Origin: Okamejei kenojei
Lineage: Eukaryota
Direction of reading: 5' to 3'
Assembly (NCBI GenBank): GCA_035221665.1
Contig: CM069155.1
Location: forward strand, 29,574,001-29,638,000
DNA: 64,000 nt
Both the position numbers and the translations under genes were made by a program. Under the pieces are notes generated by a model that searched no databases, was not told where the DNA came from, and saw nothing but the letters and a program-made list of their open reading frames with translations. Positions 1,692 to 45,357 of this stretch are shown piece by piece. The stretch's first letter is position 1; every line of letters begins with the position of its first letter.

Positions 1692-3755
1692 ATGAAATGT
1701 CTTATTGGATCCGTGTGGTGTTCGGTGGCGTTGGTTTTTTGCGCAGTTTGTGAGTATTTTACTTTCCTAGACATTTATACTTATTTCTGTTCACCATCAA
1801 TTTGGGGTTATCTCCCACACTTCAACAAACTTAACAATTTTATTTTTACTCTGATATTTCTCTTTTCTCAGACTTAAGCGCGGCAGTTACAGTAAGTCAG
1901 CCCGCCTTCGATGTCCACCTTACGGGACAGAACATACAAATATCCTGTACCATATCGGGTTCCAGTTCAGGCGCTAACCATGTCGCGTTTTGGGTCCCAA
2001 CAGATTCCTGGCAAGACTCCAAAAGTATCTATTCTGGTATTATTCCAGCACCATTTATAAAGGCACGGACATTCCAGACCGTTTTTCCGTCTCGGTGTCC
2101 GGCAACTCTCTAATATTCGCAATATCTAGCGTTCAATCGGTGGATGCTGCTGATTATTACTGTGCCAAATGGGATAGTGGTTTACATTTCGGTAAAGGAA
2201 CGAGGCTGGGTATTGGCGGTAAGTAAAATATATTCATCGGATAGCGCGCTGTTTTCTTTTTATTTCAATGCAGATATTGTTTGAAAATAATGTATATAAG
2301 CGACGAAAATAATTTATTTAATTGTTTGCACTGATCAGAGCCATATTCCGCCTTCAAAGCATTTCAAAACAACCATGACTCGAGCAAGACTAACCCTTAC
2401 AGCGTCACTATTAGATTAGCAATCTCGCAGCTGTGATTCCAAATAACATATTGTTTTACAGTTCACAGAATTACTTAGGGCCGCACCATGATTTAATGTA
2501 CTCGAAAATGTGATGCAAATCTTCAATTTTCTATTTTTTTACCGTCTAATAATGATCGCGTACTACCCATTGCGAATGGTGTAATTTCTCTCGGATTTTG
2601 AAATAGTCAATTAGAAGAGGGTTGATGTAGAACTGAAGTTGCATGGAATTGGGTTCGTCCAATAATTTGCGGAATTATTCGCAGTGATTGTGCAGATATG
2701 AAAGGAAATTGCTTGGGTAACGGGGTTCAGCAACGTTAATATTCAACACTGTCAAAATTCCGGTTGACGGGTTTGAACAAGGATATCAAAATGCGAAATG
2801 CGAAGAGAAAGTTTCGCACATTTTGTTCAGAAATTTTGTTTAATACGTAGAGCTGCCTTTCGTGGACGCAACAATGCATTTCAAATTTAAATGATCACTA
2901 CAATGCCATCCTTGCTTGTGAACGACATCTGCCAATCGTCAACCGTGGCTTTAGAAGAAAAGTTTCTATATAATTTTGCCGAATTTAAATAGCGCCACCC
3001 TCCATCTCAAAGGGTTCCGACAATTAAATACGTTTAAATCTGTTATTATAATTTTCGCGACCGGAAATCGTTTATATCTGCTGATATATTTATATAAATG
3101 TAAATGTAAATGTGTAGTAAAATGAACATTATAAAAGTTGTAATAATGTATTCAGATTTATAAAATAGTGCGCCATGATCTATCATATAAGCTTTACCGG
3201 AGTTTATGCATAGGGTAGACAGGATCTATTCTAGTTGCTTTCACGTACTTTATTTATTGTTCACCCAATTAAAAAAAACCCACACTATAATGGTTGGAAA
3301 TAGGTCGAGAATAAAACGACTTATTTCTACAAATGAATAAATGAGTGCTTTAATGAGATGTATTTTCGGCAAATAATGATATCTCAACGACAACATTTCT
3401 CCAATTAAATGTGACTTCTTATTAAACAGATCCTCGGGCACCGATCGTGACGGTCCTCCCTCCTTCAGCCGATGAAGTTACCTCAACGGGCACCGCCACC
3501 TGGTGGTGTGTTTGGTGAACGGCTTTAATCCGGGCTCGGTGGCCGTTGAGTGGAGCGTCGACGGCGGTGCAAAAAATAGCGGAGTTGAGACCAGCCCGAT
3601 CCAGCAGGATAAGGACAACACGTTCAGTCTCAGCAGTTACCTGACTCTGACAGCTCAGACTGGAACTTACCGATCTTTACTTCCTGTGTGGTTAAACACC
3701 AGACTAGTCAAACCCGCTGAAGACAACTATCATGAGATCCCAGCTGTTTATCTGA
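1692..3755 (+). pseudogene. IGL: Ig light chain cluster 1 (leader 1692-1749, VJ 1872-2218, C 3430-3755); frameshifted as assembled
   Basis: Colinear with clusters 2 and 3 and splice sites are retained, but multiple 1-4 bp indels occur in the leader, FR1, FR2 (1985-2025) and C (3500, 3655-3750). Only partial ORFs remain (1990-2226, 3503-3769). AATAAA at 3934. Confidence 0.85.
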
Positions 3756-5074
3756 TGTTTGAAGCGTGAGCTGACTCCCCAAAGTTAGTTAATCGCCATT
3801 GGGTTCTTCCATGTGACAAAGTTAGTCTTTGTCTTTCGGAATTTTCATAAAGAAATGCCATTTCTGGTTGAAACCTTGATTTTTATGACTTGTTCGCTTT
3901 AAATGTAGTTCTTTCGAAAGAATATAGTTCTTGAATAAAGCATCGTCGATTCAATTGCGTTAACTAAAAGCATGTATGTTGCTATTGTACCCAAGGTATT
4001 CTTTGCAGACGTTGAGTAAAGCTTTAAAACTATTGTCAAATGTATTGCTGATTCTCTTTGATTTATTTATGACCCAAAACATGACGACATAATATGGATT
4101 GTGTTGTCTTGTACATTTGAGCAAGAAACGCTGAATTATTTCCCCTCAATCTCGATCGCGAATTACAATCGTAGAACAGTAGTGAGTTTGTGCCACGCAT
4201 CAAGTTACACAATGCGTTCTAAACCAATCATGACAAAGGTGATCTCAACTCGAATAAGAATCCACAAAAATAGCAGTACTCAGCAGGCGAGGCGACCTGA
4301 AGTGAGAAATTGATTTGACGTTTCAGGTTGTTCTTTTGTTCAAAAATATCCCTACCAACCCAACACCTTCAGGGTTTAAAGGATTTGTTAAGTATGTTTT
4401 CGTTCATAAGGTGCACCGTTACATACTGTAAATAAAGGCAAGATATGTGAATACCTGGACATTTTCCGTAATCTACATTAATTCCCAACATGTCAGCAAG
4501 ATTCTGTAAAACTGACAATTTGTTCCCACCTCTGCTTCACACTATCCACACTATGCACCGCACCTCCACCCCTTTTCACCAAAGACATTGACATTAACCA
4601 ATGACGAGATTTGTATTCCAATTACGCTTAGGCTGTCGTTATCATGCCATGTTCCATCACAATCCCCGCTGTGGGTTGTATTTTTGTTTCTGTGGGAGCA
4701 AACAGCAAAGATTGAATCTTACTGGTTTTGGCGTTTCCATCTGTTCCTCTAGTGTCCAACTATCATCAATATCAGACGATCAGATATGAATTGTTCCAAT
4801 GACTGGACATTCTAAGTCACCCAACAAAGAGGATTCCAATGATTTACAACCTCGGCGAAGACATTCCACTTCATCTCACCCTTACATAGCCAGACCCAGC
4901 ATGATATTATGTCCCCACTGTAGATCCAACAGATCCAGGGTTCTCGTGTTCATCCCTCTCACATTAAGCATTTATTTTCCAACTCGCTCTCCTCTATTTC
5001 TTCGAAACTCTCAGAGAATCGTCTGCAGCCCAATTCAAATACACTGACCGGTTGCAGATTAAAGAAATACGTAG

Positions 5075-5261
5075 TGTGTAGGAAGGAACTGCAGGTGCCG
5101 GTTTAAACCGAAGATAGACATAAACAAGTTGGAGTAATTCATTCGCGTCAGACAGCATCTCTGGATAAAACGAATAGCTGACGAAGCTTCTTCAGACCCG
5201 AAACGTCGCCTATTCAATTTCTCCAGAGATGTTGGCTGACCAGCTTTTTATGTCTATCTTC
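5075..5261. mobile_element. Hairpin-shaped non-autonomous element built from inverted Penelope-type 3' tails; 14-bp TSD
   Basis: AAAGAAATACGTAG is duplicated at 5061-5074 and 5262-5275. Internal inverted arms are aagatagacataaa/tttatgtctatctt and catctctgga/tccagagatg. Homologues occur near 17076, 46535 and 60645. Confidence 0.6.
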
Positions 5262-6065
5262 AAAGAAATACGTAGAGTTTTTATGAATGGATCAATGGTG
5301 CGTTATTCTCATCTACCGGGGTACAGTGTAAATCACTTTTGTTTACAGTTCAGTACAAGTATCACTATACATAAGCACTTAAATACATCTTAGATAAACA
5401 TCTCAGATACAGTAAAGTTGTATCGTGGTGGTGCACTGAGACAGTATATAGCGTCGCCAGATTTAGCTCCATTTTCAAATCCCAGCTGTTATTAATGAAT
5501 GGGTTCTTCACCTGACCGTGAAGGTCCGCTGCACTGGCAGCGTGGCCGGATCTTTATCGGCCCTCTTCACCGTCAGGGTATTGCCCTCCCTCCCACAGTC
5601 CCACGGTGCGAGTTGACCCACGAGGTACCCCGAGTGAAAGACTCGTGGTTGTGTACGAGACTCCAAGTTGATGAACAAGAGTTTAACCAGAGTTCCCACG
5701 GGTATGACTAAGTTTGCCGGTTACTGCTAACGGGCAAAACTTACCTTCCGGGTGGGTTCCCAGTCCGGTCTGCGGCACGAGTCCTCGGCGCGAGATCGAC
5801 TCTGAGATCTCCTCTTGCACTTTTTTGGTTATTCCCAAATTTATTTTTGTCAACCACATGTTAACAAGCCAATTAAGCTGTCTCAATCGGTGTTCATGCA
5901 CCGTCTATTTTAACCACCGTCTATTCAAACACAACTGGCGCAATATCACCTTTACATTTGCGATATAACTGTCACATTATCATTTTGCCCCATGGGCTTG
6001 ATCTCCGATGTAAAAAAACGCAATGTTCTTCTATTTTAAACTCCACGATTTGGTTAATTCCCATC

Positions 6066-8297
6066 TACCCACGCGACAGTGAGGGTAGGAATAGAACGAG
6101 GTGGAGGATAAATGCGGGGCTGAAGGACTGGTGTCGAGGGCAGGGATTCAAGTTTCTGGACCATTGGGACTTCTTTTGGGGAAGGTATGACCTGTACAAA
6201 AAGGACGGGTTGCACTTGAACCCAAGGGGGACCAATATCCTGGCGGAATGATTGGCAAAGGATACTGGGAAGACCTTAAACTAGAACGGTTGCGGAGAGG
6301 GGCCAGAAAAAGCAGCCTACCAGAGGACTGGGAGAAATTCAGAGTCCTGCAGAGGAGGACAAAGGGTTTAATTAGGAAAGGGAAAATAGATTATGAAAGA
6401 AAACTGGCAGGGAACATAAAAACTGACTGCAAATGTGTTTATAGATAAGGAAGAGAAAGAGATTAGTTAAAACAAATGTCGGTCCTTGCAGTCAGAAACA
6501 GGTGAATTGATCATGGGGAACAAGGACATGGCAGACCAATTGAATAACTACTTTGGTTCTGTCTTCACTAAGGAAGACAAATAATCTGCCGGAAATAGCA
6601 GGGGACCAGGGTCAAATAAGGTGGAGAAACTGAGTGAAATCCAGGTTAGGCGAGAAGTGGTGTGTTGGGTAATGAATGGATTAAAGGCCAATAAAACCCA
6701 ATGTGAGGGTCAGATAGTCTGCATCCCGGAGTACTCAAGGAAGTAGGCACAGAAATAGTGGATGCATTAGTGATAATTTTTCAAACTCCTTAGATTCTGG
6801 AGTAGTTCCTGGGGATTGGAGGGTAGCTAATGTAACCCCACTTTTTTAAAAAAAGGAGGGAGAGAGAAAAACGGGGAATTGCAGACTAGTTAGTCTAACA
6901 TCGGTAGTGGGGAAACTGCTAGAGTCAGTTATTAAAGATGGGATAGCAGCACATTTGGAAAGAGGTGGAATCATTATACAAAGTCAGCATGGATTTACGA
7001 AAGGTAAATCATGTCTGACTAATCCTATAGAATTTTTCGAGGATGTAACTAGCAGATTGGATAAGGGACAACCAGTGGATGTGTTATATCTAAACTTTCA
7101 GAAGGCTTTCGACAAGGTCCCACATAAGTGATTAGTATACAAACTTAAAGCACACGGTATTGGGGGTTCACTATTGATGTGGATAGCGAACTGGCTGGCA
7201 GAGTAAACGGGTCATTTTGAGAATGGCAGGCAGTGACTAGTGGGGTACCGCAAGGCTCAGTGCTGGGACCCCAGCTAGTTACAATATATATTAATGATTT
7301 GGACGAGGGAATTGGATGCAACATCTCCAAGTTTGCGGATGACACTAAGCTGGGGGGTAGTGTTAGGTGTGAGGAGGATGCTAGGAGGCTGCAAGGTGAC
7401 TTGGATAGGCTGAGTGGTCAAATGCATGGCAGATGCAGTATAATGTGGATAAATGCGGAGTTATCCAATTTGGTGGCAAAAACAGGAGGGTAGACTATTA
7501 TCTGAATTGTGGCAAATTAGGAAAAGGGGAGATGCAATGAGACCTGGGTGTCATGGTACACCAATCATTGAAAGTAGGCATGCAGGTGCAGCAGGTAGTG
7601 ACGAAAGCAAATGGTATGTTATGTTATATTTCATAGCGAAAAGGATTTGAGTATAGGAGCAGGGAGGTTCTACTGCAGTTGTACAGCGTTTTGGTGAGAC
7701 CACACCTGGAGTATTACGTACAGTTTTGGTCTCCAAATCTGAGAAAAGACATTCTTGCCATAGAGGGGGTACAGAGAATGTTCACCAGACTGATTCCTGG
7801 AATGTCAGGACTTTCATATGAGGAAAGACTGGATAGACTTGGCTTGTACTCGCTAGAATTTAGAAGACTGAGGGGACATCTTATAGAAACTTACAAAATT
7901 CTTAAGGGGTTGGATAGGCGAGATGCAGGAAGATTGTTCCCGATGTTGGGGAGGTCCAGAAGAACAAGGGCAACAACACGCTAATTGCCACAGTCTAAGG
8001 ATAAGGGTGAATTCCTTTAGGACCGAGATGAGGAAAACATTTTTCACGCAGACAGTGGTGAGTCTTTGGAATTCTGTGCCACAGAAGGTAGTTGAGGCCA
8101 GTTAATTGGCTATATTTAAGAGGGAGTTAGATGTGGCCCTTGTGGCTAAAGGGATCAGGTGGTATGGAGAGAAGGCAGGTACAGGATACAGTGTTGGATG
8201 ATCAGCCATGATAATATTGAATGGCGGTGCAGGCTCGAAGGGCCGAATGGCCTACTCCTGCAACTATTTTCTATATTTCTATGTTTCTATGTTTCTA
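6066..8297 (+). mobile_element. CR1 LINE, internally deleted and degenerate (ORF1 SGNH-esterase fragment, ORF2 RT, 3'UTR, microsatellite tail)
   Basis: DWCRGQGFKFLDHW...DGLHLN (ORF1); [50 protein letters not shown]; tail tatttctatgtttctatgtttct. Confidence 0.9.
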
Positions 8298-8329
8298 AAC
8301 GAAAAGGAGGTGGGGGGTTTTTTAGTGTT

Positions 8330-9852
8330 ATTGGTGGGGTAGCGTTGCTGGTTAGAGAGGGGATTAACGCAATAGAAAGGAAGGACATTTGCTTGGAGGA
8401 TGTGGAATCAATATGGGTAGAGCTGCGAAACACTAAGGGGCAGAAATCGCTAGTGGGAGTTGTGTGCAGGCCACCTAACTGTAGTAGTGGAGTTTGGGAT
8501 GGCATCAAACTGGAAATTGGAAATGCGTGCAACAAAGGTAAAACAGTTATAATGGGTGACTTCAATCTACATATAGATTGGGTGAATCAAATTGGCAGGG
8601 GTGCTGAGGAAGATGGTTCCTTGGAATGTATGCTGGATAGTTTTCTAAACCAACGTGTAGAGGATCCAACGAGAGAGCAGGCTATTCTAGACTGGGTATT
8701 GAGTAATGAGGAACGGTTAGTTAGCAGTCTTGTTGTGTGTGGTCCCTTGGGCAAGAGTGACCATAATATGGTTGAGTTCTTCATTAGGATGGAGAGTGAC
8801 ATAATTAATTCAGAAACAAGGGTGCTGAACTTAAAGAAAGGTAACTTTGAGGGTATGAGACGTGAAATCTCCAAGATAGACTGGCAATTGATTCTTAAAG
8901 GGTTGACGGTGGATAGGCAATGGAAAGGCATTTAAAAACTGCATGGAGGAACTACTACAATTGTTTATCCTAGTTTGGCAAAATAATAAATCAGGGAAGG
9001 TAGTGCATCCGTGGAAAACAAGGGAAATCAGAGAAAGTATCAAAACAAAAGATGAAGCATACAAATTAGGCAGACAAAGCAGCCTACCAGAGGACTGGGA
9101 GAAATTCAGAGTCCAGCAGAGGAGGACAAAGGGCTTAATTAGGAAAGGGAAAAGAGATTATGAAAGAACACTGGCAGGGAACATAAAAACTGACTGCAAA
9201 AGTTTTTATAGATATGTGAAGAGAACACGATTAGTTAAAACAAATGTAGTCTCTTGCAGTCAGAAACAGATGAATCGATCATGGGGAACAAAGACATGGC
9301 AGACCAATTGAATAACTACTTTGGTTCTATCTTCACTAAAGAAGACATAAATAATCTTCCGGAAATAGCAGGGGACCGCGGGTCAAATGAGATGGAGGAA
9401 CTGAGTGAACTCCAGGGTAGCCTGGATTATTTGTACACCTGGGGTATTGCGTACAGTTTTGGGCTCCTGATCTGTGGAAAGACATTCTTGCCATAGAGGG
9501 AGTACAGAGAAGGTTCACTAGACTGATTCTTGGAATGTCAGGACTTTCATATGAAGAAAGGCTGGATAGACTCGGTTTGTACTCGTTAGAATTTAGAAGA
9601 TTGTGGTGGGATTTTATAGAAACTTACAAAATTCTTAAGGGGTTGGACAGACTAGATGCAGGAAGATTATTCCCGATGTTGGGGAAGTCCAGAACAAGGG
9701 GGTCACAGTCTAAGGATAAAGGGGAAGTCTTTTAGGACCGAGATGAGAAAAACATTTTTCACACAGAGAGTGGTGAATCCCTGGAATTGTCTGCCACAAA
9801 AGGTAGTTGAGGCCAGTTCATTGGCTATATTTAAGATGGAGTTAGATGTGGC
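8330..9852 (+). mobile_element. CR1 LINE fragment (APE endonuclease plus deleted RT C-terminus)
   Basis: GGVALLV, ESIWVEL, IMGDFN, PTREQAILDWVL, GKSDH in ORF 8159-8935; [16 protein letters not shown] downstream. Confidence 0.9.
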
Positions 9853-9864
9853 CTCTCTCGTTCT

Positions 9865-9912
<48 letters not shown>
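9853..9912. repeat. (CT)n microsatellite
   Basis: Visible directly in the sequence. Confidence 0.95.
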
Positions 9913-9914
<2 letters not shown>

Positions 9915-10165
9915 GAAGGCGAGTTCTGTGAGCTGGATCGAAACATTCATTTATACAATTCTTCTTTGTACTGAAGAAACAGTAAGCTATTTATTAAATC
10001 AAGGGCAGAGCTAGTCTCGGTTGTCTCTAAGAATGAAATTGAGATATCCCAATAGATATCTGGAACTGCAGTGGAGTCAACACTGTTTTATTAGTACACC
10101 ATGTCCACTTTATTAACTGTTAAACATTAAACAATCCTTCATCAATGCACTCTGCTTGATCTTTG

Positions 10166-11060
10166 ACATGGTATAGACATGGATAGAGAATTGGTTGGAA
10201 AACAGGAAACAAAGAGTAGGAACTGCGAATGGTGTGAATTGCGAGCAGGATGCTAGGAGATTGCAGTGTGACGTGGACAGACTGAGTGAGTGGGGAGATG
10301 CATGACAGATGCAGTATAATGTAGATCATTCTGAGTTTATCCACTTTGGCTGCAAGAACAAAGAGGCAGATTATTATCTCAATGGTGTCAGATTAGGAAA
10401 AAGGGAAGTGCAGCGAGATCTGGGTGTCCTTGTACACCAGTCACTGAAAGAAAGGCAGGTACAGCAGGCAGTGAATAAAGCTAATGGCATGTTGACCTTC
10501 ATAACGAAAGGATTTGAGTAGAGGAGTAAAGAGGTCCTTCTGCTGTTGAGACCACATCTGGAGTGTGGTGTGGAGTTTTCGTCTCTTAATTTGAGGAAGA
10601 ACATCCTTGCTATTGAGGCAGTGCAGCGTAGGTTCAAGAGGTAAATCCCTGGGATGGCGGGACTGTCACATGAGGAAAGATTGGAAATAATGGGCTTGTA
10701 TTCACTGGAATTTAGAAGGAGGGGGGGGGGGTCATAGAAACTTATAAAATTATAAAGGGACTGGATAAGCTTGTCGCAGGAAAAATGTTCCCAATGATGG
10801 GGGAGTCCAGAATCAGGGGGCACAGTCTAATATTAAAGGGGAGGCCATTTAAAACTGAGATGAGAAATAAATTTCACCCAGAAATTCAGGTTGTGAATTT
10901 GTGGGATACTCTGTCACAGAAGGCAGTAAAGGCCAATTCACTGGATTAACTTAAAAGATTTAGATAGAGCTCTCGGGGCTAGCGGAATCAAGGGAGATGG
11001 GTAGAAGGCAGGCACGGGTTACTGATTGTGAATGATCAGCCATGATCACAATGAATAGTG
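10166..11060 (+). mobile_element. Degenerate CR1 LINE 3' fragment
   Basis: WIENWL..RKQRV, QRDLGVLVHQSLK and CR1 3'UTR (gatcagccatgatcacaatgaat). Confidence 0.85.
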
Positions 11061-11169
11061 ATTGCGTCTCTGGGAATGCAGTATTTATTGCCCATCCAAA
11101 AGTGGGAACACAGAGACAGAAGGAACTGCAGATGTTGGAATCATGATAAACAAAAAGTGCTGGGGTAAC

Positions 11170-13784: not shown

Positions 13785-13870
13785 TCTGATTGGCTTCGAA
13801 GAGCATACCGGTTTGATTGGTTTGGAGAGATAAACACACGGTGACATCTCGTCATTCCATTTATAAAGAG
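13785..13870 (+). promoter_or_regulatory. IgL cluster 2 promoter (ATTGG 13789 and 13816, GGTGACATCT 13840, TATAAA 13862)
   Basis: Same motif order and spacing as cluster 3. Confidence 0.7.
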
Positions 13871-14110
13871 AGCCAGAGAGCAAGATTACACGCCACTCGT
13901 CCTGGAAACTGCCGCCCTATCGGAGCTCAGTCGGTTAATGAAAATGTCGTATTGGATCCGTGTGGTTGGTGCGTTGGTTTTTTGAGCAGTTTGTGAGTAT
14001 TTTACTTTCCTCGACATTATAGTTATTTCTGTTCACCATTAATTTGGGGTTATCTCCCACACTTCAACAAACTTAACAATTTTTTTTTTCTGATATTTCT
14101 CTTTTCTCAG

Positions 14111-14452
14111 ACTTCAGCGCGGCAGTTACAGTAAGTCAGCCGCCTTCAATGTCCACCTCTACGGGACAAAAAATACAAATATCCTGTACCATATCGGGTT
14201 CCAGTACAGGCGCTTACTATGTCTCGTGGTACCAACAGATTCCTGGCAATACTCCCAAGTATCTATTCTACTATGAATCCGGCAGCATTTATAAAGGCAC
14301 GGACATTCCGGACCGTTTTTCCATCTCGGTGTCAGGCAGTTCTGTAATATTCGCAATATCTAGCGTTCAATCGGTGGATGCTGCGGACTATTACTGTGCC
14401 AAATGGGATAGTGGTTTACATTTCGGTAAAGGAACGAGGCTGGGTATTGGCG
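14111..14452 (+). CDS. IGL: Germline-joined V-J exon of cluster 2 (open frame)
   Basis: ORF 14149-14460: ...ISCTISGSSTGAYYVSWYQQ...YYCAKWDSGLHFGKGTRLGIG; AG at 14109-10, GT at 14453-54. Confidence 0.9.
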
Positions 14453-15444: not shown

Positions 15445-15767
15445 ATCCTCGGGCACCGATCGTGACGGTCCTCCCGCCCTCAGCCGATGAAGTTACCTCA
15501 AAGGGCACCGCCACCCTGGTGTGTTTGGTGAACGGGTTCAATCCGGGCTCGGTGGCCGTTGAGTGGACAGTCGACGGCGGTGCAAAAAATAGCGGCGTTG
15601 AGACCAGCCCGATCCAGCAGGATAAGGACAACACGTTCAGCCTCAGCAGTTACCTGACTCTGACAGCCTCAGACTGGAACTTACACGAGCTTTACTCCTG
15701 TGTGGTTAAACACCAGACTCAGTCAAACCCGCTGAAGACAAATATCATGAGATCCAGCTGTATCTGA
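15445..15767 (+). CDS. IGL: Ig light chain constant exon of cluster 2 (open frame)
   Basis: ORF 15462-15767, nearly identical to the cluster 3 C exon. Confidence 0.9.
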
Positions 15768-15945
15768 TGTTTGAAGCGTGAGCTGACTCCCCAAAGTTAG
15801 TTAATCACCATTGGGTTCTTCTATGTGACAAAGTTAATCTTTGTCTTTCGGAATTTGCATAAAGAAATGCCATTTCTGGTTGAAACCTTGATTTTTATGA
15901 CTTGTTCGCTTTAAATGTAGTTCTTTCGAAATAATACAGTTCTTG

Positions 15946-15951
15946 AATAAA
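15946..15951 (+). terminator. Poly(A) signal AATAAA of cluster 2 (homologous sites: 3934 AATAAA, 59511 AATAAA, 45536 AATACA variant)
   Basis: About 180 bp after the normal C stop, at the same aligned position in all four copies. Confidence 0.7.
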
Positions 15952-34826: not shown

Positions 34827-34864
<38 letters not shown>

Positions 34865-37800
34865 GGTTAGCATGGACATCGCCACTATCAATTAAAGGTG
34901 TATACACATATCATCTACATCCTTCCTCTACCAAAACAAACAGTGAGTGACAGGGCGACCACGTCTCATGCGCTAGGGTAAATGCAAACAGTAAAAGCAC
35001 GGGAATACAGAATCACACGTAATCGCCGTAACGGACCGGCGGCCTGTCCAGGCGACCAGACCGGGTCCGCACCTCGCCATCACCCCTCCTTCCCCAACGG
35101 GAACAAGCGGGGACGACGCCGGGGGCATGGTGGGGGCTACGGACAGGAGAACCCCTGGGCGACGAATGCATCGGGGGGGGACGGCGAAGAGAAGGGCGAG
35201 GAAGCCGGAGAAAGCGGGACTGCAGCCGGGAGGCGGACCAGAGGAGGACGGGGGGGGGGGGGGGGGGGGGGGGACGTGGTTGGCCCCAGAGGAATGGGCA
35301 AAGCACTGGGCCGTGACAGTGGCAGCGGGGGGGGGGGGGGGGATATACGGAGCCGCCGGGGGAGGGAGAGGCTCGTCCATGAGCTGGAGATGCTGGCGGG
35401 ACCGGTGGTACACCCCTTCCGTCATGGTTGACAAGTTACGAACGAGGGGAAAACGGCAGAACCGACGACCATGGCCAGCTTGGAACGGCCAGAAGTGGAT
35501 CTCATACGGACGACCTGGCCGGGGAGAAGAGGGCGGATGACACGGCAGGGACCAGTCATGGGAACGCTTTCTGTATACCGTGTTTTTGCGCAATACGTTT
35601 CCGGACCAAGGCAGGTTTAAAGACGGAGGGGGACAGGGACTGCTGAGACACCGGGACCATGGGCCTCGTGACTCAGGACATGAGTCGCTGAGCCAGGGAG
35701 CCCAGGGCATGGTCGCGGGAGATGTTGCGGAGGTTCAGCGGGGCCAGGTAGATGTCGGAGCGGGATAGGCGGCAACGTTTCCAACAATCCTTTGGCACTG
35801 CGGACCGCGCGCTTGGCCAGTCCGTTGCTCCGCGGGTTTATTCCGGGCTGCTGGTGTAATGACGAAAGTTCCATCGTTCGGCAAAAGTGCGGAACTCGGC
35901 ACTGGTGAACTGGCTGCCATTGTCGACTGCAGGCTGGCCGGTTGACCCACCAAAGTGGCGGCGCAACCTCTCGATGTCCGCGGAGGGAGAGAGGGAGTGG
36001 AGCTGGTCAACTTCAAACCAGCTGGAGTAAGAGTCGACAAGCACCAGGAAGTGCTTTCCATGCCACTCGAGGATGTCGATTGCTAGCGCAGACCAGGGCA
36101 GGTCAGCAGCTGGCTGCTGCAGGAGCGGCTGCCGCTGTTGCTGCGGAGCGAGGCTGTTGCAGGTAGGGCACGCGGAGACTCTAACCCGGAAGTAGCGAGG
36201 CATGTCAGGCCAGAAAAACTGGCTCTCTGAGCGATGGAAAGGGTCGCTTCGGCCCGGGATGGCCACGATGAGCAGTTTCAAAGTATTGTTCTTGTAGTGC
36301 TGCGGGCACCACCACCTTGTGCCCTTCACAATCACACCATCACGCAGCACCAACTCGTCACAAAACCAAGAAGTAAGGCACCGCTGCGGCCGGCAGGAAG
36401 AACGGCGGTCTGGCCAGCCCTGCTTGATGATCGCAGCCAGCTGCTGTAGCGAAGTGTCAGCTAGGGACCTCAACTGATGGAGGGCACGAAATTAACGTTT
36501 AGGACTATCAGATCAGATGCCTCGTATGGATGTCGGATTGTGGATGAGAGAGGCGCCCGAGACAGCGTGTCAGCAACAAACATGTCCTTGACCTTTCGAT
36601 TAACCACTGTGAAAGTGAAGCGATGTAGCTGGAGCACCATGCGCTGGAGCCGGGAGGAGGCCATGTGTATCAGCTTGTTGAGGATGGTGACCAGAGGCTG
36701 GTGGTCCGTCTCGACAGTGAAGCAGTTGCCCAGGATATAGTCCTTGAATTTGGAGCAGGCAAAGACAAACAGCCAGCAGCTCTTTTTCAATCTGGGCATA
36801 GTGTTGTTCAGCAGTCGTCATTGTGCGGGATGCGTAGAACACAGGCAGTTCCACCCCGTCATGGATCTGCAGGCAGGCGGCCCCGAGGGCCAAACTTAGA
36901 TGCATCACATGTGAGGACGATGGGGGCGCTGGAGGTCAAAAGTACTTCAGCGTTTGGCATGCTGATCAGTTTAGATTTGAGAGTGTCAAATGCTTTCTGG
37001 TGTTGCGGGTAACCAGGCCCAAGCAGTGTCCTTTTTCACCAGATCCCGCAGAGGGGCACTCAGTTCACTCAGGCCGGGGATGAACTTTCCCAGGTAGTTG
37101 ACCATGCCCAAGAAAGCGCTGTAGGCCAGGCACGTCTGCAGGTGCAGGCATCTCGAATATTGCGGCCGTCTTCTGCGGGTCGGGCTTCAGCCCCGATGCA
37201 GTGAAGACATGCCCCACGTAGGTGACCTCAGGGACCCGGAATCGGCACTTCTTCGGGTTTGAGCTTCAGGTTGACTACCCGGGCCCACTCTGCAGCACCT
37301 GGCGAAGGTGGTGGTCGTGCTCAGCGTCATTCTTCCCATAAACCAGGATGTCGTCGACAATGATGGCACAGGAAGTCCAGCAAACAGTTGGTCCATGGTC
37401 CTTTGGAGCACCTCGCTGGCAGAGTTGATCCCAAACGGCATGCGGAGGAAGCGATACCTGCCAAAGGGCATGCTGAAGGTTGTCAGGTGCGAGGATCGCT
37501 CGTCTAGAGGTATCTGCCAGAACGAACTCTTGGCATCAAGAACCGAGAACACGGTGGCAGGGCCGACATGTGCAGCAACATCCTCCATCGTCCGCATAGG
37601 GTAGTGCGGGCGCCTGATGGCCAAGTTCAAGTCCTTAGGGTTGATGCAGATCCGTATTTCGACAACCATGGTAGAAACCCACCGGGTGGAGTCTGTTACG
37701 GCTTCAGGATGCCCGTGGCCACCATCTCGCGAAGAGCAGACTCGCCTTGCCCCTCATGGCGAAAGACACACGGTGCAGGGGACGGATGACCGGCGTGATG

Positions 37801-38205
37801 TCGGAATTGATGGCAATCTTGTAGGGCAATCTTCTGTCCTGTCGTTGTCAGAGTGAGGCCACACGCAAATTGAAAGAACAGCACCTCATATTTCGCTTGG
37901 GCAACTTTCAACCCAGTGGTATAATTACTGATTTATCTAATTTCAAGCTACTCTTGCAGCCCCCCCCCCCCTCCCCATCCTTGTATCCTTCTCATTATCA
38001 TCATTTCCCCAACCAACAATGGTTTATTGTGGGCTCCACCCTTCCTGAAGTCATCTGTTGCCAGCCCTGATTTGTTCTGGCCTTGTCACTTACAGTTTCC
38101 ACCCCCACCTCCACTTTCACTCCGAAGAAGGCTTTCGACCTGAAGCGTCACCTATTATGTTTCTCCAGACTCGCTGAGTTATTCCAGCATTTTTGTGTCC
38201 ACTGT
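33960..38205 (+). mobile_element. Penelope-like element remnant (33960-34688 and 37832-38205) split by a Gypsy insertion
   Basis: QRDPITNHIFP and QGPRQSFLVRQRFTCT; C-terminus EQHLIFRLGNFQPSGIITDLSNFK; tail with gaagaagg..cgacc.gaa.cgtcacctat and gctgagtta.tccagcattt. Confidence 0.7.
34689..37831 (-). mobile_element. Gypsy (Mag-like) LTR retrotransposon, 5'-truncated: RT, RNaseH, integrase, PPT and 3' LTR (34689-34919)
   Basis: IRICINPKDLN...LDAKSSFWQIPL...MPFGINSASE (RT); YAQIEKELLA, ETDHQP, ADTLSR (RH); CPTC, LVLVDSYS, DNGSQF, SNGLA (IN). LTR TGTAG...CTACA with AATAAA; purine tract at 34920-34930 on the minus strand. Confidence 0.92.
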
Positions 38206-38659
38206 CGGTTTATAGTTCTTTAGCTAAATTCCTCCCTATCCATGTATTTATTTTTGGGATTAATGTATTGTTGGTCAGTCAATGCATCGATCGCCCATCC
38301 CTATCTGCCATTGAGAAGCTGGTGATAAACAACCTTGATGCTGTCTGACCTGCTGAGTTACTTCGGCTTTTTGTGTCTATTTTCAGCAACTATAATCTTG
38401 TGATGCCATTCATGTTATAAATCCACAGGTTGGATCAAGGAAGAGTGAAAGATGATATAGTTCCAAGCCTTGATGTGCTTGGAAGTTTCATTGCAGACAA
38501 CTGTATTATTATGTGGAAATAAACACAAAATGCTGAAGTAAATCAACGGGCAGGCAGAATCTCTGGACACACAGGATAGGTGGCAGCTTCTGCACCAAGC
38601 ACCCAATCCAAACCAGCACCTGCTGTTCCTGGACTCTGTGGAAGGACTTGGATATTTTG

Positions 38660-39630
38660 GGGGATTGAGCTGAGTAGTGGGAGATGGAATACAGCACCGC
38701 ATCGTGTGGAGTCATGCATTGATAGCAGGAATAAAGGCATAAACTATTTTCTAAATGGGGAAATAATTGACAAATCGGAGGTACAGAGGGACTTGGGAGT
38801 GCTGTTGCAGGATTACTAAAAAGTTAATTTGCAAGTTGAATCAGTAGGAAGGAATGTGAACGCAATGCTAGGATTTATTTCGAGAGGGCTAGAATACAAA
38901 ACATGAATGTAATGCTGAGGCCTTCTGAGGAACTGCTCAGATTGAATTTGATTATTAGGCTCAGTTTTAGGCGCCATATCTGGGGAAATATGTGTTGGCT
39001 TTGGAGAGGGTCCGGAGGAGGTTTACGAGAATGATCTTAAGATTAATTGGGTTAATATGTGATGAGCGCATGAAGGCACAGGCCTTGTGTTCCCAGGAGT
39101 TTAGAAGAATGAAGGTGGACCTGATTGAAACTTACCGAATAGTGATAGGCTTGTGTAGAGTAACAGACAAACCCCAACATCAGGAAAAATCGATCTCTAG
39201 TCTGTCCAATCCCTTCAGAATTTTATATGTTTCTATAAGATCCCCTCTCATCCTAATATTAGTGAATACAAGCCCTATGTCAAATGCTTTTTGAAAGTCC
39301 AGATACAACACATGAACTGGCTCTTCCTTTTCCATTCTACTTGTTACATCCTCAAAGGTTTCCAGAAGATTAGTCAAGCATGATTTTCCCTTCATAAATC
39401 CATGCTGACTTTGTCCGATCCCTTCATTGCTTTCCAAATACGCTGCAATTACATCTTTAATAATTTAATAATTTTAAAGTTGAGATTGACATATTCTTGA
39501 TTGGCACAGGGGGTACGGAGATAAGACACGAGAATGGGGTTGAGGGGTTAAGATGGATCAGCCATGATTGAATAGTGGAGTAACCTTGATGGTCCGAATG
39601 GTCTAATTCTGCTCCTGGAACAATGAATTT
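38660..39630. mobile_element. Old CR1 fragment (+) containing an inverted, deleted CR1 piece (39165-39465, -); paralogous to 53260-55370
   Basis: EVQRDLGVL and LALERVRRRFTRMI on +; QHGFMKGKSCLTNLL and LDFQKAFD on -. Confidence 0.75.
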
Positions 39631-40509
39631 ATGAACTTATAAAATATGCGTCTGGTTCTTGAATGCCTTGGTGACCATTTTGTTGAGGTTTTACATAAGG
39701 GGACTGATTAGAACGCATTCTGTTGACGGCACAGAATTTGGGCTTGTTGCACTTGTGGCAAATGGAGGCAAAGAATGGGATTATGCCATTAAAATAAAAA
39801 CGTAATTCTGTAAAATGTTGCACTTCTTGAACGTTGTCGGAGCTGAAGTCATCACGACATGTGGCGAGGATATGATCTCAGCCATATTGCTATTTTTTAA
39901 GCATTATCAGAGTCTTGAAAATTTGGTATTGAGTGGGGAACTGGAATTGGATGGAATGGAGATAGATTATTTTGGTTGCAACACGATCTTTATTATAGAA
40001 AATACGAGAAAATATTCATAAAGTAATAAATCTCACGCGCTTCTGCTCGTAATGCGTGAACTGATATAGATGGCGGTTAATAATAAGAGGTCACATGAAT
40101 TTCTCCTCTTCCAGATTCCTGTTTTCTATAGCTTGTCTGGAGAACTCAAAAGTCCTTGCACCTTTCGGGATCATGATCTAATGTGCAGTCTTTATCTCTC
40201 TCCCATGAAGGTGAGTTCTGTGAGCTGGATCGAAACATTCATTTATACAATTAATAAGTCTGATCTCGAAACAAAAGTAAACTCAGTTTTAAAACTAGAC
40301 GTTCTTCTTTGTACTCAAGAAACAGCAAGCTATTTATTAAAGTAAGGGCCGAAGCTAGTCTCCGATGTTTCTAAGAATGAAATTGAGATTTTCCAATAGA
40401 CATCTGGAAGTGCAGTGGGGCCAACAGTGTTTTGTTAGTCACCATGTCCACTTTCTTAACTGTTAAACATTAAACCAGCCTCATCAATGCACTCTGCCCG
40501 ATCTTTGAC

Positions 40510-41535
40510 ATGGAATTGACATGGATAGAGAATTGATTGGGAAACAGGAAACAAAGAGTAGGAATAAACGGGTCCCTGTCTGAATGGCCGGCAGTGATGA
40601 GTAGAGTGCCGCAAGGCTCGGTGTTGGGGCCGCAACTATTTACAATATATATTAATGATTTAGATGATGGGATTAAAAGGAACACTAGCAAATTTGCAGA
40701 TGACACAAAGTTGGGTGGCATGGTGAAGTGCGAAGAGGATGCTATGAGGTTGCAGTGTGACTTGGAGAGGTTGAGTGAGTGGGCAGATGCATGGCAGATG
40801 CAGCATAATGTAGATAGAGTTGATCCTCTTTGGCGGCAAGAACAAGGAGGCAAATTATTATCTCAGGACCTACGCAGTCGACGGTAGATCGGGTGGTCAA
40901 AAGGCTTTTGGCACTTTGGCCTTCATCAGCCAGAGTAATGAGTATAGATGTGGGGGGGTCTTGTTGCAGATGTATAAGACGTTGGTGATGCCGCATTTAG
41001 ATTATTGTGTTCAGTCTGGGCACAATCGCATAGGAAAGATTTCGACAAGCTGGAAAGGGTACAAAGAAGATTTACGAGGATTTTGTCAGGACTACGGGGT
41101 CTGAGCTATAGGGAGAGGTTGAGTAGGCTGGGACTCTATTCTTTGGAGCACAGGAAGATGAGGGAGAATCTTATAGAGGTGCATAGGGTCCTGAGTGGAA
41201 TAGATTGAGGAGATGCATTGTCTCTTGCCTAGAGTAGCTGAATCGAGGACCAGGTTTATGGTGACAGGGCACAGATTTAATAGGAATCCGAGGGGTAACT
41301 TTTTCCCACAGAGAGTGATGGTTGTAGGGAACAAGCAGCCAAAGGAAGTAGTTAGTTGTGCGAGGGACTATCCCAACGTTTTAAAATACAGTTAAACAGG
41401 TACATGGATATGACAGATTTGGAGGGATATGGACTCAATACGGGCAGGTGGGACTAGTGTAGATGGGACATGTTGGCCGATGTGGGAAAGCTGGACCGAA
41501 GGGCATGTTTGACTCTATGACTTTCTTTGACTCTA
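40510..41535 (+). mobile_element. CR1 RT fragments, two subfamilies fused at ~40865
   Basis: [40 protein letters not shown] and 3' tail. Confidence 0.85.
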
Positions 41536-42809
41536 TGGGGCATCATGTGGTATCCGCGGATGAGCCAGTGCAATCTTTCGAGTGTTCGTTTTCTCACGGT
41601 ATTCCACGTTGCAAAGTTAACAACATGCAGCAGCGAGAGAAGGATGAGAACGGTGAGAGCAGGGACCCGTGTAAATAAACATTAGGTAAAACTTACTTGT
41701 CGTAGTGACATGCCTACGTTCAGAGAAGCTTTTGCGCGCAATTACAGCTCATTCTGTAGATGGTACTAATTGTATTCACTTTACTTTAATTTGGAGATAC
41801 AGCGCGGAAAGATCCTTTCTGCCCACTGATCAACAGTCCCCGCTCATTAACACTATCCTACACACTTTAAGGACAGTATATAATGTTACCAAGCCAATGA
41901 ACCTACCAATCTGTCTTTGTCCTCTGGAAGGAATCCGGATCTTCCTGGGAAATCCCAGACAGGTCATGAGGAAACGTGGTGGTGAAAGGTTGAACGGTTA
42001 AGCAATGAATGGCTGTCCAGTCATGTGCACTGCTAAAGTAATATCGTTTAATGACACTTTAAGGACAATAATTAATCGTAATTATTTTTCTCACCCGCTA
42101 TTTCCCGAAAACCGCTCTTCACGTTTCTCCCTTGTATGTTTTTCCAGATAGGAGTTGTGGCAAGTTTTGCGAATTACTGCGCATTACAATAGGATAATAT
42201 CACAGAGTGCTTTTCCAAGCACGACACGCATCGGGTGGTCAAAATAGCCTCCAAAATTGCTACTTTACTGACATTTGCAGTGATGTTCTGTCCCCTCAGG
42301 TCCTTTCTAAATTATTAGATACACAAGTAAAAGGGCAGCCAGTGGGGTTTATGATTTCTAAAATTACAAAGCTATCTAAATATAGGTTTGATGTGCTTTT
42401 TAATAAAACAGTGCTGAGGAGGTGACTGTGATCATGTTATGTTCAGCGATACGGAGGTAGACAAAAATGCTGGAGAAACTCAGCGGGTGAGGGAGCATCC
42501 ATGGAGCGAAGAAAATCATCGATACGTATTCAGTTGGTCCGTTTAGATTAAATATTTATTTTCCGTTTTCATTGTTGATTAAACAGTTACCGAATATAAT
42601 ATTTAAAACTCGCAGTCTGTTTAGTGTACATATGCGAGGATTCAAACAGAAAATTATACATTGTTTGTTTAAAAAGAAGGGACAACAGTGGCAATCCTTT
42701 TCATTCTGCTGTATGTATGAGAACGCGTGAGGCTTTTTAGAAATACAAATCTCTAAAATAAGACCTGCATGTTTCACAGTGGCAAATATTTTGAGGAAGA
42801 ATCTGGCAC

Positions 42810-42900
42810 TTTCTGATTGGCTTCGACGAGCATACGGGTTTGATTGGTTTGGAGAGATAAACACACGGTGACATCTCGTCATTCCATTTATAAAGAGAGC
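42810..42900 (+). promoter_or_regulatory. IgL cluster 3 promoter: two inverted CCAAT boxes (42816, 42843), CRE/decamer-like GGTGACATCT (42867), TATAAA (42889)
   Basis: Motifs lie 70-150 bp upstream of the leader ATG and are positionally conserved in clusters 1-3; no ATTTGCAT octamer seen. Confidence 0.7.
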
Positions 42901-42964
42901 CAGAGAGCAAGATTACACGCCACTCGTCCTGGAAACTGCCGCCCTATCGGAGCTCAGTCGGTTA

Positions 42965-45357
42965 ATGAAAATGTCTTATTGGATCCGTGTGGTCGGTGCG
43001 TTGGTTTTTTGCGCAGTTTGTGAGTATTTTACATTCCTGGACATTATACTTATTTCTGTTCACCATTAATTTGGAGTTATCTCCCACACTTCAACAAACT
43101 TAACAATTTTCCTTTTTTTTCCCTGATATTTCTCTTTCTCAGACTTAAGCGCGGCAGTTACAGTAAGTCAGCCGCCTTCGATGTCCACCTCTATCGGACG
43201 GAAAATACAAATATCCTGCACCATATCGGGTTCCAGTTCAGGCGCTAACTATATCTCATGGTACCAACAGATACCTGGCAAATCTCCCAAGTATCTATTC
43301 GCCCATACTACCGGCAACAGCATTTATAAAGGCACGGACATTCCAGACCGTTTTTCCGTCTCGGTGTCAGGCAGCTCTCTAATATTCGCAATATCTAGCG
43401 TTCAATCGGTGGATGCTGCGGACTATTACTGTTCCAAATGGGATAGTGGTTTACATTTCGGTAAAGGAACGAGGCTGGGCATTGGCGGTAAGTAAAATAT
43501 ATTCTTCGGACAGCGCGATGTTTTAGTTTTAATTTAATGCAGATATTGCTTGACTTAACGTCGTGAGTTCACATTATACTTGATTGGGCCAGCTGTATTT
43601 CAATGCAGATAGTGCGGTCTTGCTATGCAGATGTTCCGAGTTCACTTGGAAATACCTCAGTGAAATGGCGGCAAAAGCGAGCTAATGATTTATCTTGTGG
43701 TTTTACAGATGAACAATCAATCAATTTCTCAACAAAAGTATTCTTTGTCTAGTGAACCACAGGACTGTAGCGATCTTGAGCGAATTAACTCGCTTTGGAC
43801 TGTAGCTAAATTGATCCTCTTTTAGGCATTGAGGTCTGGTTGAAAGGTGCCGCGATGGGAAGGAATTATTTATTCCACATTGTTTTGTTTAATATTGAAG
43901 CAAGTGTTTCACTCTGTAGCCCATTATACTTCAGTTGAATTATGAAAATAATGTATATAATTGTTTTCATTGATCAGAGCCACAACAAGACTAACCGTTA
44001 CAGCTTTAATATTAGATTAGAAATCGCGCAGCTACGATTCCAAACAATATATATTTTTACAGTTCACATAATTACTTAGGGCCGCACCATGAATTTAATG
44101 CACTCGCAAGTGTGACGCAAATCTTCCATTTTCCATTTTGTTTCCCGTCCAGTAATGAGCGCATACTTCCCAATGCGAATGGTGTCATTACTCTCGGATT
44201 TTCAAATCGTCAATTAGATGAGGGTTGATATAGAATTGAAGTTGTATGGAATAGGGTTCGTTCAATAAATTGCGGAAATATTCCCAGTGATTGTCCAGAT
44301 ATGAAAGGAAATTGCTTGGGTAACGGGGGGTCAATAATGTTAATATTCAACACTCTCAAAATTCCGGTTGACGAGTTTAACAAGGATATCAAAATGCGCA
44401 ATGCGATGAGACAGTTTCGCACATTTCCTTCAGAAATTTTGTTTAATACGTAAAACAGCCTTTCGTGGACGCAGCAGTCCATTTCAAATATAAATGAACA
44501 TTCGAACTACAATGTCATCCTTGCTTGTGAACGACGTCTGCGAATCGGTGACCGTGGCTCTCGAAGACTAGTTTCCTTTAGTTTTGCCGAACTTAAATAG
44601 CGTCACCTACCATCTCAATGGGTGCCGACAGTTAAATAAGTTAAAATCTGTTATTATAAATTTCGCGACCGCGCCACGTTTATATCTGCTGATATATTTA
44701 TATAAATGTAAAGCCCGAGATGTGTAGTAAAATGAACATTATAAAGGTTATAATAATGTATTTAGTTTTATAAAATAGTGCCGCCATGATCTATTACAGA
44801 TGCTTTCCCGGAGTTTATGCATAGGGCAGACAGAAAATTAACTATTCTGGTTGCTTTCACGTACTTTATTAATTGTTTACCCAATTAAAAAAATACGCAC
44901 TGTAATGGCTTGAAATAGATCGAGAATAAAAGGGTATTTCTATAAATGAATAAATTAATGAGATGTATTTTCGGCAAATAATGATATCCTAACGACAGCA
45001 ATTCTCCAATTAAATGTGACTTCTTATTGAACAGATCCTCGGGCACCGATCGTGACGGTCCTCCCTCCTTCAGCCGATGAAGTTACCTCAAAGGGCACCG
45101 CCACCCTGGTGTGCTTAGTGAACGGCTTTAATCCGGGCTCGGTGGCCGTTGAGTGGAGCGTCGACGGCGGTGCAAAAAATAGCGACGTTGAGACCAGCCC
45201 GATCCAGCAGGATAAGGACAACACGTTCAGTCTCAGCAGTTACCTGACTCTGACAGCCTCAGACTGGAACTTACACGAGCTTTACTCCTGTGTGGTTAAA
45301 CACGAGACTCAGTCAAACCCGCTGAAGACAAATATCATGAGATCCAGCTGTATCTGA
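42965..45357 (+). CDS. IGL: Intact immunoglobulin light chain gene (cluster 3), chondrichthyan type II/lambda-like, germline-joined VJ. Exons: leader 42965-43019, VJ 43143-43487, C 45035-45357
   Basis: Leader MKMSYWIRVVGALVFCAV ends in phase 1 at T|GTGAGT. Acceptor ctcAG at 43142. VJ exon reads YLSAAVTVSQPPSMSTSIGRKIQISC...ISWYQQIPG...DAADYYCSKWDSGLHFGKGTRLGIG|GTAAGT, with V Cys/Trp/YYC and J FGxGT contiguous and no RSS. Acceptor aacAG at 45034. C1-set domain DPRAPIVTVLPPS..ATLVCLV..W..YSCVVKHE..RSSCI* has the penultimate inter-chain Cys. All splice phases are compatible. The C sequence closely resembles shark lambda/type II C regions from memory. Confidence 0.95.
43143..43487 (+). CDS. IGL: Germline-joined V-J exon of cluster 3
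   Basis: ORF 43181-43495 with SC...WYQQ...YYC-SKWDSGLH-FGKGTRL; bounded by AG (43141-42) and GT (43488-89). Confidence 0.95.
45035..45357 (+). CDS. IGL: Ig light chain constant exon of cluster 3
   Basis: ORF 45052-45357; C1-set motifs LVCLV, VEW, SSYL, YSC and terminal SSCI*. Confidence 0.95.

What the first reader, a model, noticed from the sequence alone, without database searches (positions are those of the whole stretch)
1872..43487. Germline-joined VJ array with frozen CDR3 and diversity shifted to CDR1/CDR2
Seen: three VJ exons with no RSS or V-J intervening DNA share the same junction (C-[A/S]KWDSGLH-FGKGT; nucleotides aaatgggatagtggtttacatttcgg identical). CDR1 (SSGANHVA / STGAYYVS / SSGANYIS) and CDR2 (WYYSST / YYESGS / AHTTGNS, with a one-codon length change) differ sharply while frameworks and C are almost identical. 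Established: chondrichthyan type II/lambda chains are germline-joined. Inference: one ancestral germline RAG joint was amplified, then diversifying selection acted on CDR1/2. This inverts the usual CDR3-centred logic and suggests an innate-like light-chain family.
Basis: partly seen in the sequence, partly recalled or inferred. Interest (0 to 1): 0.7.

Follow-up and report, generated by a model that had tools for sequence, protein, structure and literature searches.

The report
Skate pre-joined lambda light-chain array
This is four of about 41 tandem copies of a skate antibody lambda light-chain gene whose V and J parts are already fused in the genome, an arrangement long known in sharks and skates; the third antigen-binding loop is conserved only in this one subfamily and varies widely across the array, while the second loop shows likely positive selection.

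Summary
The sequence observation is real but over-read. The window holds four leader-VJ-C clusters of the chondrichthyan lambda (type II/NS3) light chain, part of a ~41-unit array over 1.35 Mb. Only copy 3 is intact: copy 1 is frameshifted (likely assembly error), copy 2 has a stop in its leader, copy 4 lacks V. All 37 VJ exons found are germline-joined, as published for this isotype. CDR3 is not frozen: 29 open VJ exons give 17 CDR3 sequences of 6-11 residues, with dN/dS 1.0-1.4, above framework (0.3-0.5) and equal to CDR1. A narrower claim holds. In the window's skate subfamily the CDR3 (A/S)KWDSG(L/V/I)(H/Y) is kept in 8 of 9 own genes and, one Asn variant included, in 19 of 19 relatives from three other skate genera, at about framework rate. 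CDR2 there has dN/dS 2-7; CDR1 about 1. The sister subfamily shows the reverse. 'Innate-like' is unsupported: CDRs are rich in hypermutation hotspots, and a review reports skate lambda dominates in adults. Side findings: this subfamily lost the promoter octamer, and no rearranging light chain turned up in the assembly. Known system, modest new detail.

The parts
1529..1621 (+). Copy 1 promoter: two TGATTGG (inverted CCAAT-type) boxes, degenerate octamer site at about 1572, TATAAA at 1616
1692..1749 (+). Copy 1 leader exon, disturbed by small indels
   Evidence: spliced joint 1749>1872 in run X20
1872..2218 (+). Copy 1 germline-joined VJ exon, 347 nt, frameshifted (likely consensus error); junction 2167-2192
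3430..3755 (+). Copy 1 C exon, frameshifted (stop after 28 codons); end approximate; poly(A) signal 3934
13787..13867 (+). Copy 2 promoter: paired TGATTGG boxes, degenerate octamer, TATAAA
13938..13992 (+). Copy 2 leader exon with premature TGA at 13983-13985 (TGC in copy 3)
14111..14452 (+). Copy 2 VJ exon, open frame; CDR1 14197-14220, CDR2 14272-14289, CDR3 14398-14421 (AKWDSGLH)
   Evidence: (V-set E 1.8e-15)
15445..15767 (+). Copy 2 C exon, open frame, 106 aa
   Evidence: (C1-set E 5.5e-27)
42814..42894 (+). Copy 3 promoter: paired TGATTGG boxes, degenerate octamer, TATAAA
42965..43019 (+). Copy 3 leader exon, intact
43143..43487 (+). Copy 3 VJ exon, intact; CDR1 43229-43252, CDR2 43304-43324, CDR3 43433-43456 (SKWDSGLH)
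45035..45357 (+). Copy 3 C exon, intact; copy 3 is the only complete gene in the window
57481..59009 (+). Copy 4 J-C intron remnant; homology to copy 3 starts about 57 nt behind the J end; an interspersed repeat lies where VJ would be
59010..59335 (+). Copy 4 orphan C exon, stop codon lost (read-through); end approximate

Best explanation
The window is four units of a ~41-unit tandem array of germline-joined Ig lambda (type II) light-chain clusters of a skate, and the shared CDR3 marks one subfamily that likely arose by duplication of an already joined gene and then likely diversified mainly at CDR2 under positive selection. How it works: each unit is leader-VJ-C and needs only transcription and splicing (structure shown; spliced joints seen in one run). 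The joint is old: the lineage holding this subfamily has an 8-9-residue CDR3 with Trp at position 3 in skates, rays, sharks and a chimaera (shown); a single RAG joining event before those groups split is inferred. Since then the array has evolved by birth-and-death with unequal exchange between units (mosaic units shown). All three CDRs change in the germline by substitution and short indels, and which loop moves fastest differs by subfamily (shown): CDR2 in the window's subfamily A, CDR1 and CDR3 in subfamily B, all three in C. CDR3 in A is held at about framework rate, likely because a short 8-residue loop mostly packs against the heavy chain (inferred). B cells would pair these chains with RAG-rearranged heavy chains and diversify them by AID hypermutation (hotspot enrichment shown; mutation itself from established shark biology, not tested here).
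For: 40 C matches on one contig, 29.31-30.66 Mb; 37 of 37 VJ exons joined, 24 of 41 units intact. C exon 70% and 73% identical to depositor-named sandbar and horn shark lambda, 46-47% to the other light-chain types of this genome. 17 CDR3 in 29 genes. dN/dS FR/CDR1/CDR2/CDR3: A 0.43/0.96/2.18/1.04, B 0.41/1.45/1.18/0.98, C 0.27/1.01/1.93/1.42. CDR2 in A stays above 1 on the four indel-free codons (3.2, p 0.003; 7.3, p 1e-5) and in tree-free pairwise counts (pN 0.34 vs pS 0.09, intron 0.10). Parsimony changes per site, skate A (27 seqs): FR 1.13, CDR1 3.12, CDR2 4.57, CDR3 1.75; skate B (39 seqs): 1.80, 6.12, 3.12, 6.75. Mosaic units, Fisher p 5e-8 and 3e-24. 122 of 124 long-CDR2-type sequences have CDR3 of 8-9, 121 have Trp3, including Hydrolagus GVWESGYV. 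AGY:TCN Ser 44:16 in CDR1, 35:21 in CDR2, 11:124 in FR1, 13:152 in FR3. Reviews: all lambda genes germline-joined.
Against: Within subfamily A the CDR3 really is conserved: 0 replacement differences between the two A sublineages whose introns differ by 22% (P 0.007 under neutrality, 0.17 at framework rate), and kept in two skate families, so recent duplication alone does not explain it. The one divergent A-flanked CDR3 (AKWEDGYF, L027) sits in a mosaic exon and drives the A-group value of 1.04; without it CDR3 is 0.37. Regions have only 3-11 codons, p-values are nominal over many tests, recombination can inflate tree-based dN/dS, and the assembly has error-rich units. The lambda clade in the C tree had 90/82 support, below the tool's starred threshold. 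Relatives in other skates came from 90%-identity clusters, which favours similar CDR3.
Confidence: 0.8

Rival explanations
1. One reading: a family with a frozen CDR3 that acts as an innate-like light chain, its diversity moved to CDR1/CDR2. Tenable only for subfamily A, as a separately regulated chain with a fixed binding or heavy-chain-pairing surface.
For: [quoted passage not shown]
Against: CDR3 is not slower than framework (p 0.12-0.90); its last two positions vary and fit dN/dS about 3 in A+B; array-wide CDR3 is as variable as CDR1; hotspot-rich CDRs; a review reports skate lambda nearly absent in embryos and dominant in adults.
Confidence: 0.12
2. No selection signal at all: CDR3 identity reflects recent duplication and gene conversion, and the CDR2 differences are conversion tracts from older paralogues, alignment artefacts at a GGC/AGC repeat, or assembly error.
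For: Mosaic units; error-rich units with more indels than substitutions; identical runs as long in FR3 and C.
Against: The signal holds on indel-free codons and in pairwise counts; lineage-diagnostic silent bases stay with subfamily A while Tyr/Cys/Trp changes at IMGT 55 recur in A and B (codons); the same CDR2 variants occur in independent skate genomes; error-rich units were excluded.
Confidence: 0.06
3. Germline leak of AID-type hypermutation wrote the CDR differences, rather than selection.
For: Adjacent differences are 28% in VJ against 11% expected; tandem mutations typify shark hypermutation (passages); CDR1/2 are hotspot-rich.
Against: Silent rate is not raised in CDRs (free-dS model not better, 2dL 1.7-2.7 on 3 df) nor in VJ over introns (0.09 vs 0.10); adjacency is expected from clustering in CDR2. 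Silent sites are few (about 4-6 per CDR), so the test is weak.
Confidence: 0.02

Closest known systems
Chondrichthyan Ig lambda = type II (horn shark, little skate) = NS3 (nurse shark); sandbar shark lambda
   Same: V-J-C miniclusters, all germline-joined (reviews PMC4279169, PMC5192425, passages; synonyms in PMC5985310); C exon 70-73% identical to named shark lambda; 90-95% to annotated skate lambda-like proteins.
   Different: About 41 units in one array against six loci reported for nurse shark; the window's subfamily has a skate-type KWDSG CDR3, a long CDR2 under selection and no canonical octamer.
Skate type I (sigma-2) light chains, Anderson et al. 1995 (PMC2192082, abstract only)
   Same: All germline-joined, sequence groups, replacement changes concentrated in CDRs over frameworks, expressed and potentially somatically mutated.
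   Different: Other isotype: type-I-like C exons of this genome are 46-47% identical and lie on other contigs.
Neonatal germline-joined shark antibodies (IgM1gj with joined sigma-2; joined kappa NS4 R4/R18; Lee et al. 2000, PMC2193156)
   Same: Pre-joined V region independent of somatic RAG.
   Different: Those are a few recent joins beside split genes and are expressed early; here the whole isotype is joined, the join is ancient, and skate lambda is reported to dominate in adults.
Birth-and-death evolution of vertebrate V gene families (PMC3308330 passages; positive selection on germline CDR1/2 recalled, not read)
   Same: Tandem duplication, pseudogenes, conversion, diversifying selection on CDRs.
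   Different: Here CDR3 and J are part of the germline gene and evolve the same way.

Membership tests
Chondrichthyan Ig lambda (type II/NS3) | One V, J and C per minicluster, repeated | tested here: met
   41 units examined, each with at most one VJ and one C
Chondrichthyan Ig lambda (type II/NS3) | All V-J germline-joined, no RSS | tested here: met
   37 of 37 VJ exons joined; relaxed RSS hits only outside the VJ exon in 8 loci; control finds RSS at IgH V. Four units lack a V in the fetched stretch; 29.87-30.40 Mb gave no hits and was not read.
Chondrichthyan Ig lambda (type II/NS3) | C domain groups with named shark lambda chains | tested here: met
   70% to sandbar lambda P0177, 73% to horn shark lambda P0150, 46-47% to other types; one clade at 90/82 support; no named kappa or type I reference was in the tree
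Chondrichthyan Ig lambda (type II/NS3) | Transcribed and spliced L-VJ-C | tested here: inconclusive
   One run (X20, RNA by the tool's guess) has GT..AG joints 1749>1872 and 2217>3429, absent from 3 DNA runs; not assignable to one paralogue or stage
Chondrichthyan Ig lambda (type II/NS3) | Somatic hypermutation | not testable with these tools
   Only contigs available; hotspot enrichment shown
Typical Ig light-chain promoter | Octamer ATTTGCAT upstream of the leader | tested here: not met
   Exact in 13 of 13 group-C units and in L021/L033; GTTTGGAG at the aligned site in the window copies; one mismatch in L022/L031
Sigma-2 / type I light chain | C and V similarity to type I | tested here: not met
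   46-47% C identity to the C26 loci; calling those loci type I rests on recalled motifs
Innate-like neonatal germline-joined Ig | Invariant or near-invariant binding site | tested here: not met
   25 CDR1, 19 CDR2, 17 CDR3 sequences in 29 genes; CDR3 near-invariant only in subfamily A
Innate-like neonatal germline-joined Ig | Expression restricted to early ontogeny, little mutation | not testable with these tools
   No staged RNA; a review reports the reverse for clearnose skate lambda as a whole

The most novel reading that the evidence does not exclude
Skates carry a lambda subfamily that has kept a near-ancestral CDR3 across two families, moved its diversification to CDR2 and swapped the octamer promoter for paired CCAAT boxes, making it a separately regulated light chain with a fixed pairing or ligand surface; and because every light-chain locus found in this assembly is pre-joined and no kappa was found, this skate may build antibodies with no light-chain V-J recombination at all.
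Probability: 0.15. Interest if true: 0.6.

Novelty: new member of a known kind. Interest (0 to 1): 0.27.

Why it matters
The system is known, so the main claim changes little. The array is still a clean natural experiment: with the junction fixed in the germline one can watch selection act on all three light-chain loops, and here the fast loop differs between sister subfamilies. If the octamer loss marks separate regulation, or if skates have no rearranging light chain, it would bear on how light-chain exclusion and ordered B-cell development work without light-chain recombination.

Tried and rejected
Family-wide frozen CDR3: rejected. CDR1 positive selection in the window's subfamily: not found (dN/dS 0.66-1.03). 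RSS in or beside VJ: none. A V remnant for copy 4: none in 45.7-59 kb. Pfam on the repeat upstream of copy 4: no match. PDB search did not resolve the isotype. Germline hypermutation leak: no support, weak test. No RNA holder listed on record. One search timed out before the last variant for group C. The first lineage split by span mixed lineages and was redone by FR2 motif (2-3 chimaera sequences still look misplaced, 8 of 221 sequences unparsed). Earlier-findings look-ups gave nothing. Papers not held: Criscitiello and Flajnik 2007, Hohman 1993, Lee 2002; a search for Iacoangeli found only unrelated citing papers. Base-level read support for copy 1's His codon and copy 2's leader stop stays open.
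Full report
Observation. Three VJ exons lie at 1872-2218, 14111-14452 and 43143-43487 with V running straight into J and a splice donor behind it; no RSS was found. The 26-nt junction is identical in all three. The window has four repeat units, not three. Copy 2 has TGA in its leader. Copy 4 keeps the J-C intron and C but has lost promoter, leader and VJ; an interspersed repeat lies there. Only copy 3 is complete. The shared junction is part of a 46-nt identical run, but FR3 has a 40-nt run and the C exon a 44-nt run among the same copies, so it is not special on its face.

Is copy 1 a pseudogene? Probably an assembly error. Against its nearest paralogue L028 it has 5 substitutions and 4 indels in VJ, 8 and 7 in C, 13 and 13 in the promoter region, while four pairs of open-frame genes have no indel in C. 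In three DNA runs the contigs over positions 1901, 3681 and 3705 all carry the frame-keeping form, and at 1920 all do in two runs and 179 of 308 depth in the third. These contigs pool paralogues and may come from other individuals, so this is not proof. The His of its CDR1 was read as Asp in the only X1 contig there, not in X2.

Identity. Pfam gives V-set and C1-set. Best relatives are skate proteins (C 90-95% to Amblyraja, Leucoraja, Rhinoraja), so the host is a skate. The C exon is 70% and 73% identical to depositor-named sandbar and horn shark lambda, 46-47% to the other light-chain types in this genome, and falls in one clade with shark and chimaera lambda-like C (90/82). Two reviews state that all lambda (type II/NS3) genes are germline-joined in every species studied (passages).

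The array. The C exon has 40 matches (40 of 42 candidates scored), all on contig C25 between 29.31 and 30.66 Mb. I examined 41 units: 37 fetched stretches and the 4 window copies. 37 have a VJ exon and all 37 are joined; 29 have an open VJ frame; 24 are intact in leader, VJ and C. A relaxed RSS scan hit 8 loci, always outside the VJ exon; the same scan finds proper RSS at two IgH V loci. The genes form three subfamilies: A (window type, 9 open VJ), B (10) and C (10).

CDR3 is not frozen. The 29 open exons have 25 CDR1, 19 CDR2 and 17 CDR3 sequences; CDR3 lengths are 6 (2), 8 (19), 9 (7) and 11 (1). A codon model with one dN/dS per region gives FR/CDR1/CDR2/CDR3 of 0.43/0.96/2.18/1.04 for A (8 genes; L026 dropped as identical to L025), 0.41/1.45/1.18/0.98 for B and 0.27/1.01/1.93/1.42 for C; CDR3 exceeds framework in each (p 0.025, 0.003, <1e-4) and never differs from CDR1. 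For A+B together: 0.43/1.27/1.37/1.10, with the invariant Trp under constraint and the last two CDR3 codons at about 3. Broken units were left out of all rate work.

What survives. In subfamily A, 8 of 9 own genes read (A/S)KWDSGL(H/Y); the ninth, L027, reads AKWEDGYF and is a mosaic whose FR3 resembles the other A sublineage. Dropping it, a choice made on the outcome, gives 0.40/0.66/2.62/0.37: CDR3 equals framework (p 0.90) and is below CDR2 (p 0.0003). All 19 A proteins of Amblyraja (13), Leucoraja (5) and Rhinoraja (1) read AKWD(S/N)G(L/V/I)(H/Y), spanning Rajidae and Arhynchobatidae. Parsimony changes per site over 27 A sequences: FR 1.13, CDR1 3.12, CDR2 4.57, CDR3 1.75 (CDR3 vs FR p 0.12; vs CDR2 p 0.003). 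Over 39 skate B sequences the order reverses: 1.80, 6.12, 3.12, 6.75; stingray B-like and own C genes also have CDR3 as the most changed region.

Selection on CDR2 in A. It holds on the four codons free of indel doubt (3.2, p 0.003; 7.3, p 1e-5 for the five closest genes) and in pairwise counts: pN 0.34 in CDR2 against pS 0.09 in VJ and 0.10 in the J-C intron. CDR1 pN is 0.08, CDR3 0.05, FR 0.03. Silent rates are not raised in CDRs. The same CDR2 types recur in other genera, for example HYTSGSI in L025 and an Amblyraja protein, so the variants are old. Caveats: few codons, nominal p-values, and clear exchange between units (copy 1 is L028-like in VJ and copy 2-like in its 3' flank, p 5e-8; L026 switches upstream, p 3e-24).

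One ancestral joint? Partly. Of 124 sequences with the long-CDR2 framework, 122 have an 8- or 9-residue CDR3 and 121 have Trp at position 3, including sharks and the chimaera Hydrolagus (GVWESGYV); the 89 short-CDR2 sequences range from 5 to 12. One very old joint for the A+B lineage is a fair inference, older than this array. RAG as the cause is taken from work on kappa joins (PMC2193156 passages), not shown here. Length changes continue without split genes: one 90%-identity stingray cluster holds both 8 and 9.

Innate-like? Against: CDR1/2 favour AGY over TCN Ser (44:16, 35:21; FR1 11:124, FR3 13:152) and carry about three times the WRCY/RGYW density of FR1/FR3, as expected of hypermutation substrates; a review reports clearnose skate lambda nearly absent in embryos and dominant over sigma-cart in adults. 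For: joined genes in nurse shark are expressed early, and subfamily A has lost the octamer that 13 of 13 group-C units keep, with paired TGATTGG boxes instead. One run, RNA by the tool's guess, holds both spliced joints of an A-type transcript. Stage and cell type are unknown.

Literature seen. PMC2192082: abstract and reference list only; it reports at least 89 joined skate type I genes with CDR-biased replacement. PMC2193156, PMC4279169, PMC5192425, PMC2435157, PMC5985310, PMC3308330, PMC5931798, PMC12227049, PMC13433984: passages only. Nine searches listed no paper on subfamily-level CDR rates or octamer loss in skate lambda, but the key primary papers are not held, so absence from print is not established. 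No supplements were opened. Positive selection on germline CDR1/2 in mammalian V genes, IMGT numbering, interface packing of light-chain CDR3, and the type I, sigma and LINE labels are recalled, not from calls.

Verdict. Known system, observation partly right, headline wrong at family level, right in a weaker form for one skate subfamily. New member of a known kind; interest 0.27.

Noticed in passing
window 1572, 13820, 42847 (approx.); L020-L056 promoters: Octamer ATTTGCAT is exact in all 13 group-C units and L021/L033, degenerate in subfamilies A and B; A has paired TGATTGG boxes, C has a CACGTG-type box upstream instead.
   Followed up: partly
L057, L059, L061 (C26, C581); L058, L060, L068 (C28): All other light-chain loci found are also germline-joined: 3 type-I-like, 2 sigma-like plus a broken remnant (labels recalled). 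No kappa-like C among 150 of 187 candidates scored; little skate kappa is listed as not determined in PMC5985310. Only 3 type-I-like genes against at least 89 reported in Raja suggests collapsed assembly or species difference.
   Followed up: partly
L027 (G000:C25:29496584-29496937): Mosaic gene: core-A flanks and FR1, but FR3 nearer the L022 lineage and a distinct CDR3 AKWEDGYF.
   Followed up: yes
L025 and L026: Identical VJ and near-identical C and 3' flank, but L026's upstream region matches L030: recent unequal exchange or assembly chimera.
   Followed up: partly
L020, L021, L024, L029, L056, window copy 1: Units with dense 1-nt indels, two beside N gaps; likely poor consensus, so the pseudogene count (17 of 41) is probably too high.
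   Followed up: partly
G000:C25 29.33-29.39 Mb and 30.40-30.66 Mb: Minus-strand blocks flank the plus-strand run; group C lies apart across a 0.5 Mb stretch with no hits.
   Followed up: no
window 35841-37753 (-): Reverse transcriptase and integrase fragments, an LTR-retroelement remnant in the 29-kb gap between copies 2 and 3.
   Followed up: no
window 8150-8932 (+), 63226-63852 (+), 56588-57480 (+): Endonuclease and RT fragments of LINE type; the third has no Pfam match but related copies beside two other V-less C exons, L023 and L035.
   Followed up: partly
L062, L063, L066, L067: RSS-flanked heavy-chain V segments on C2 and C3 and multi-domain heavy-chain C exons on C15.
   Followed up: no
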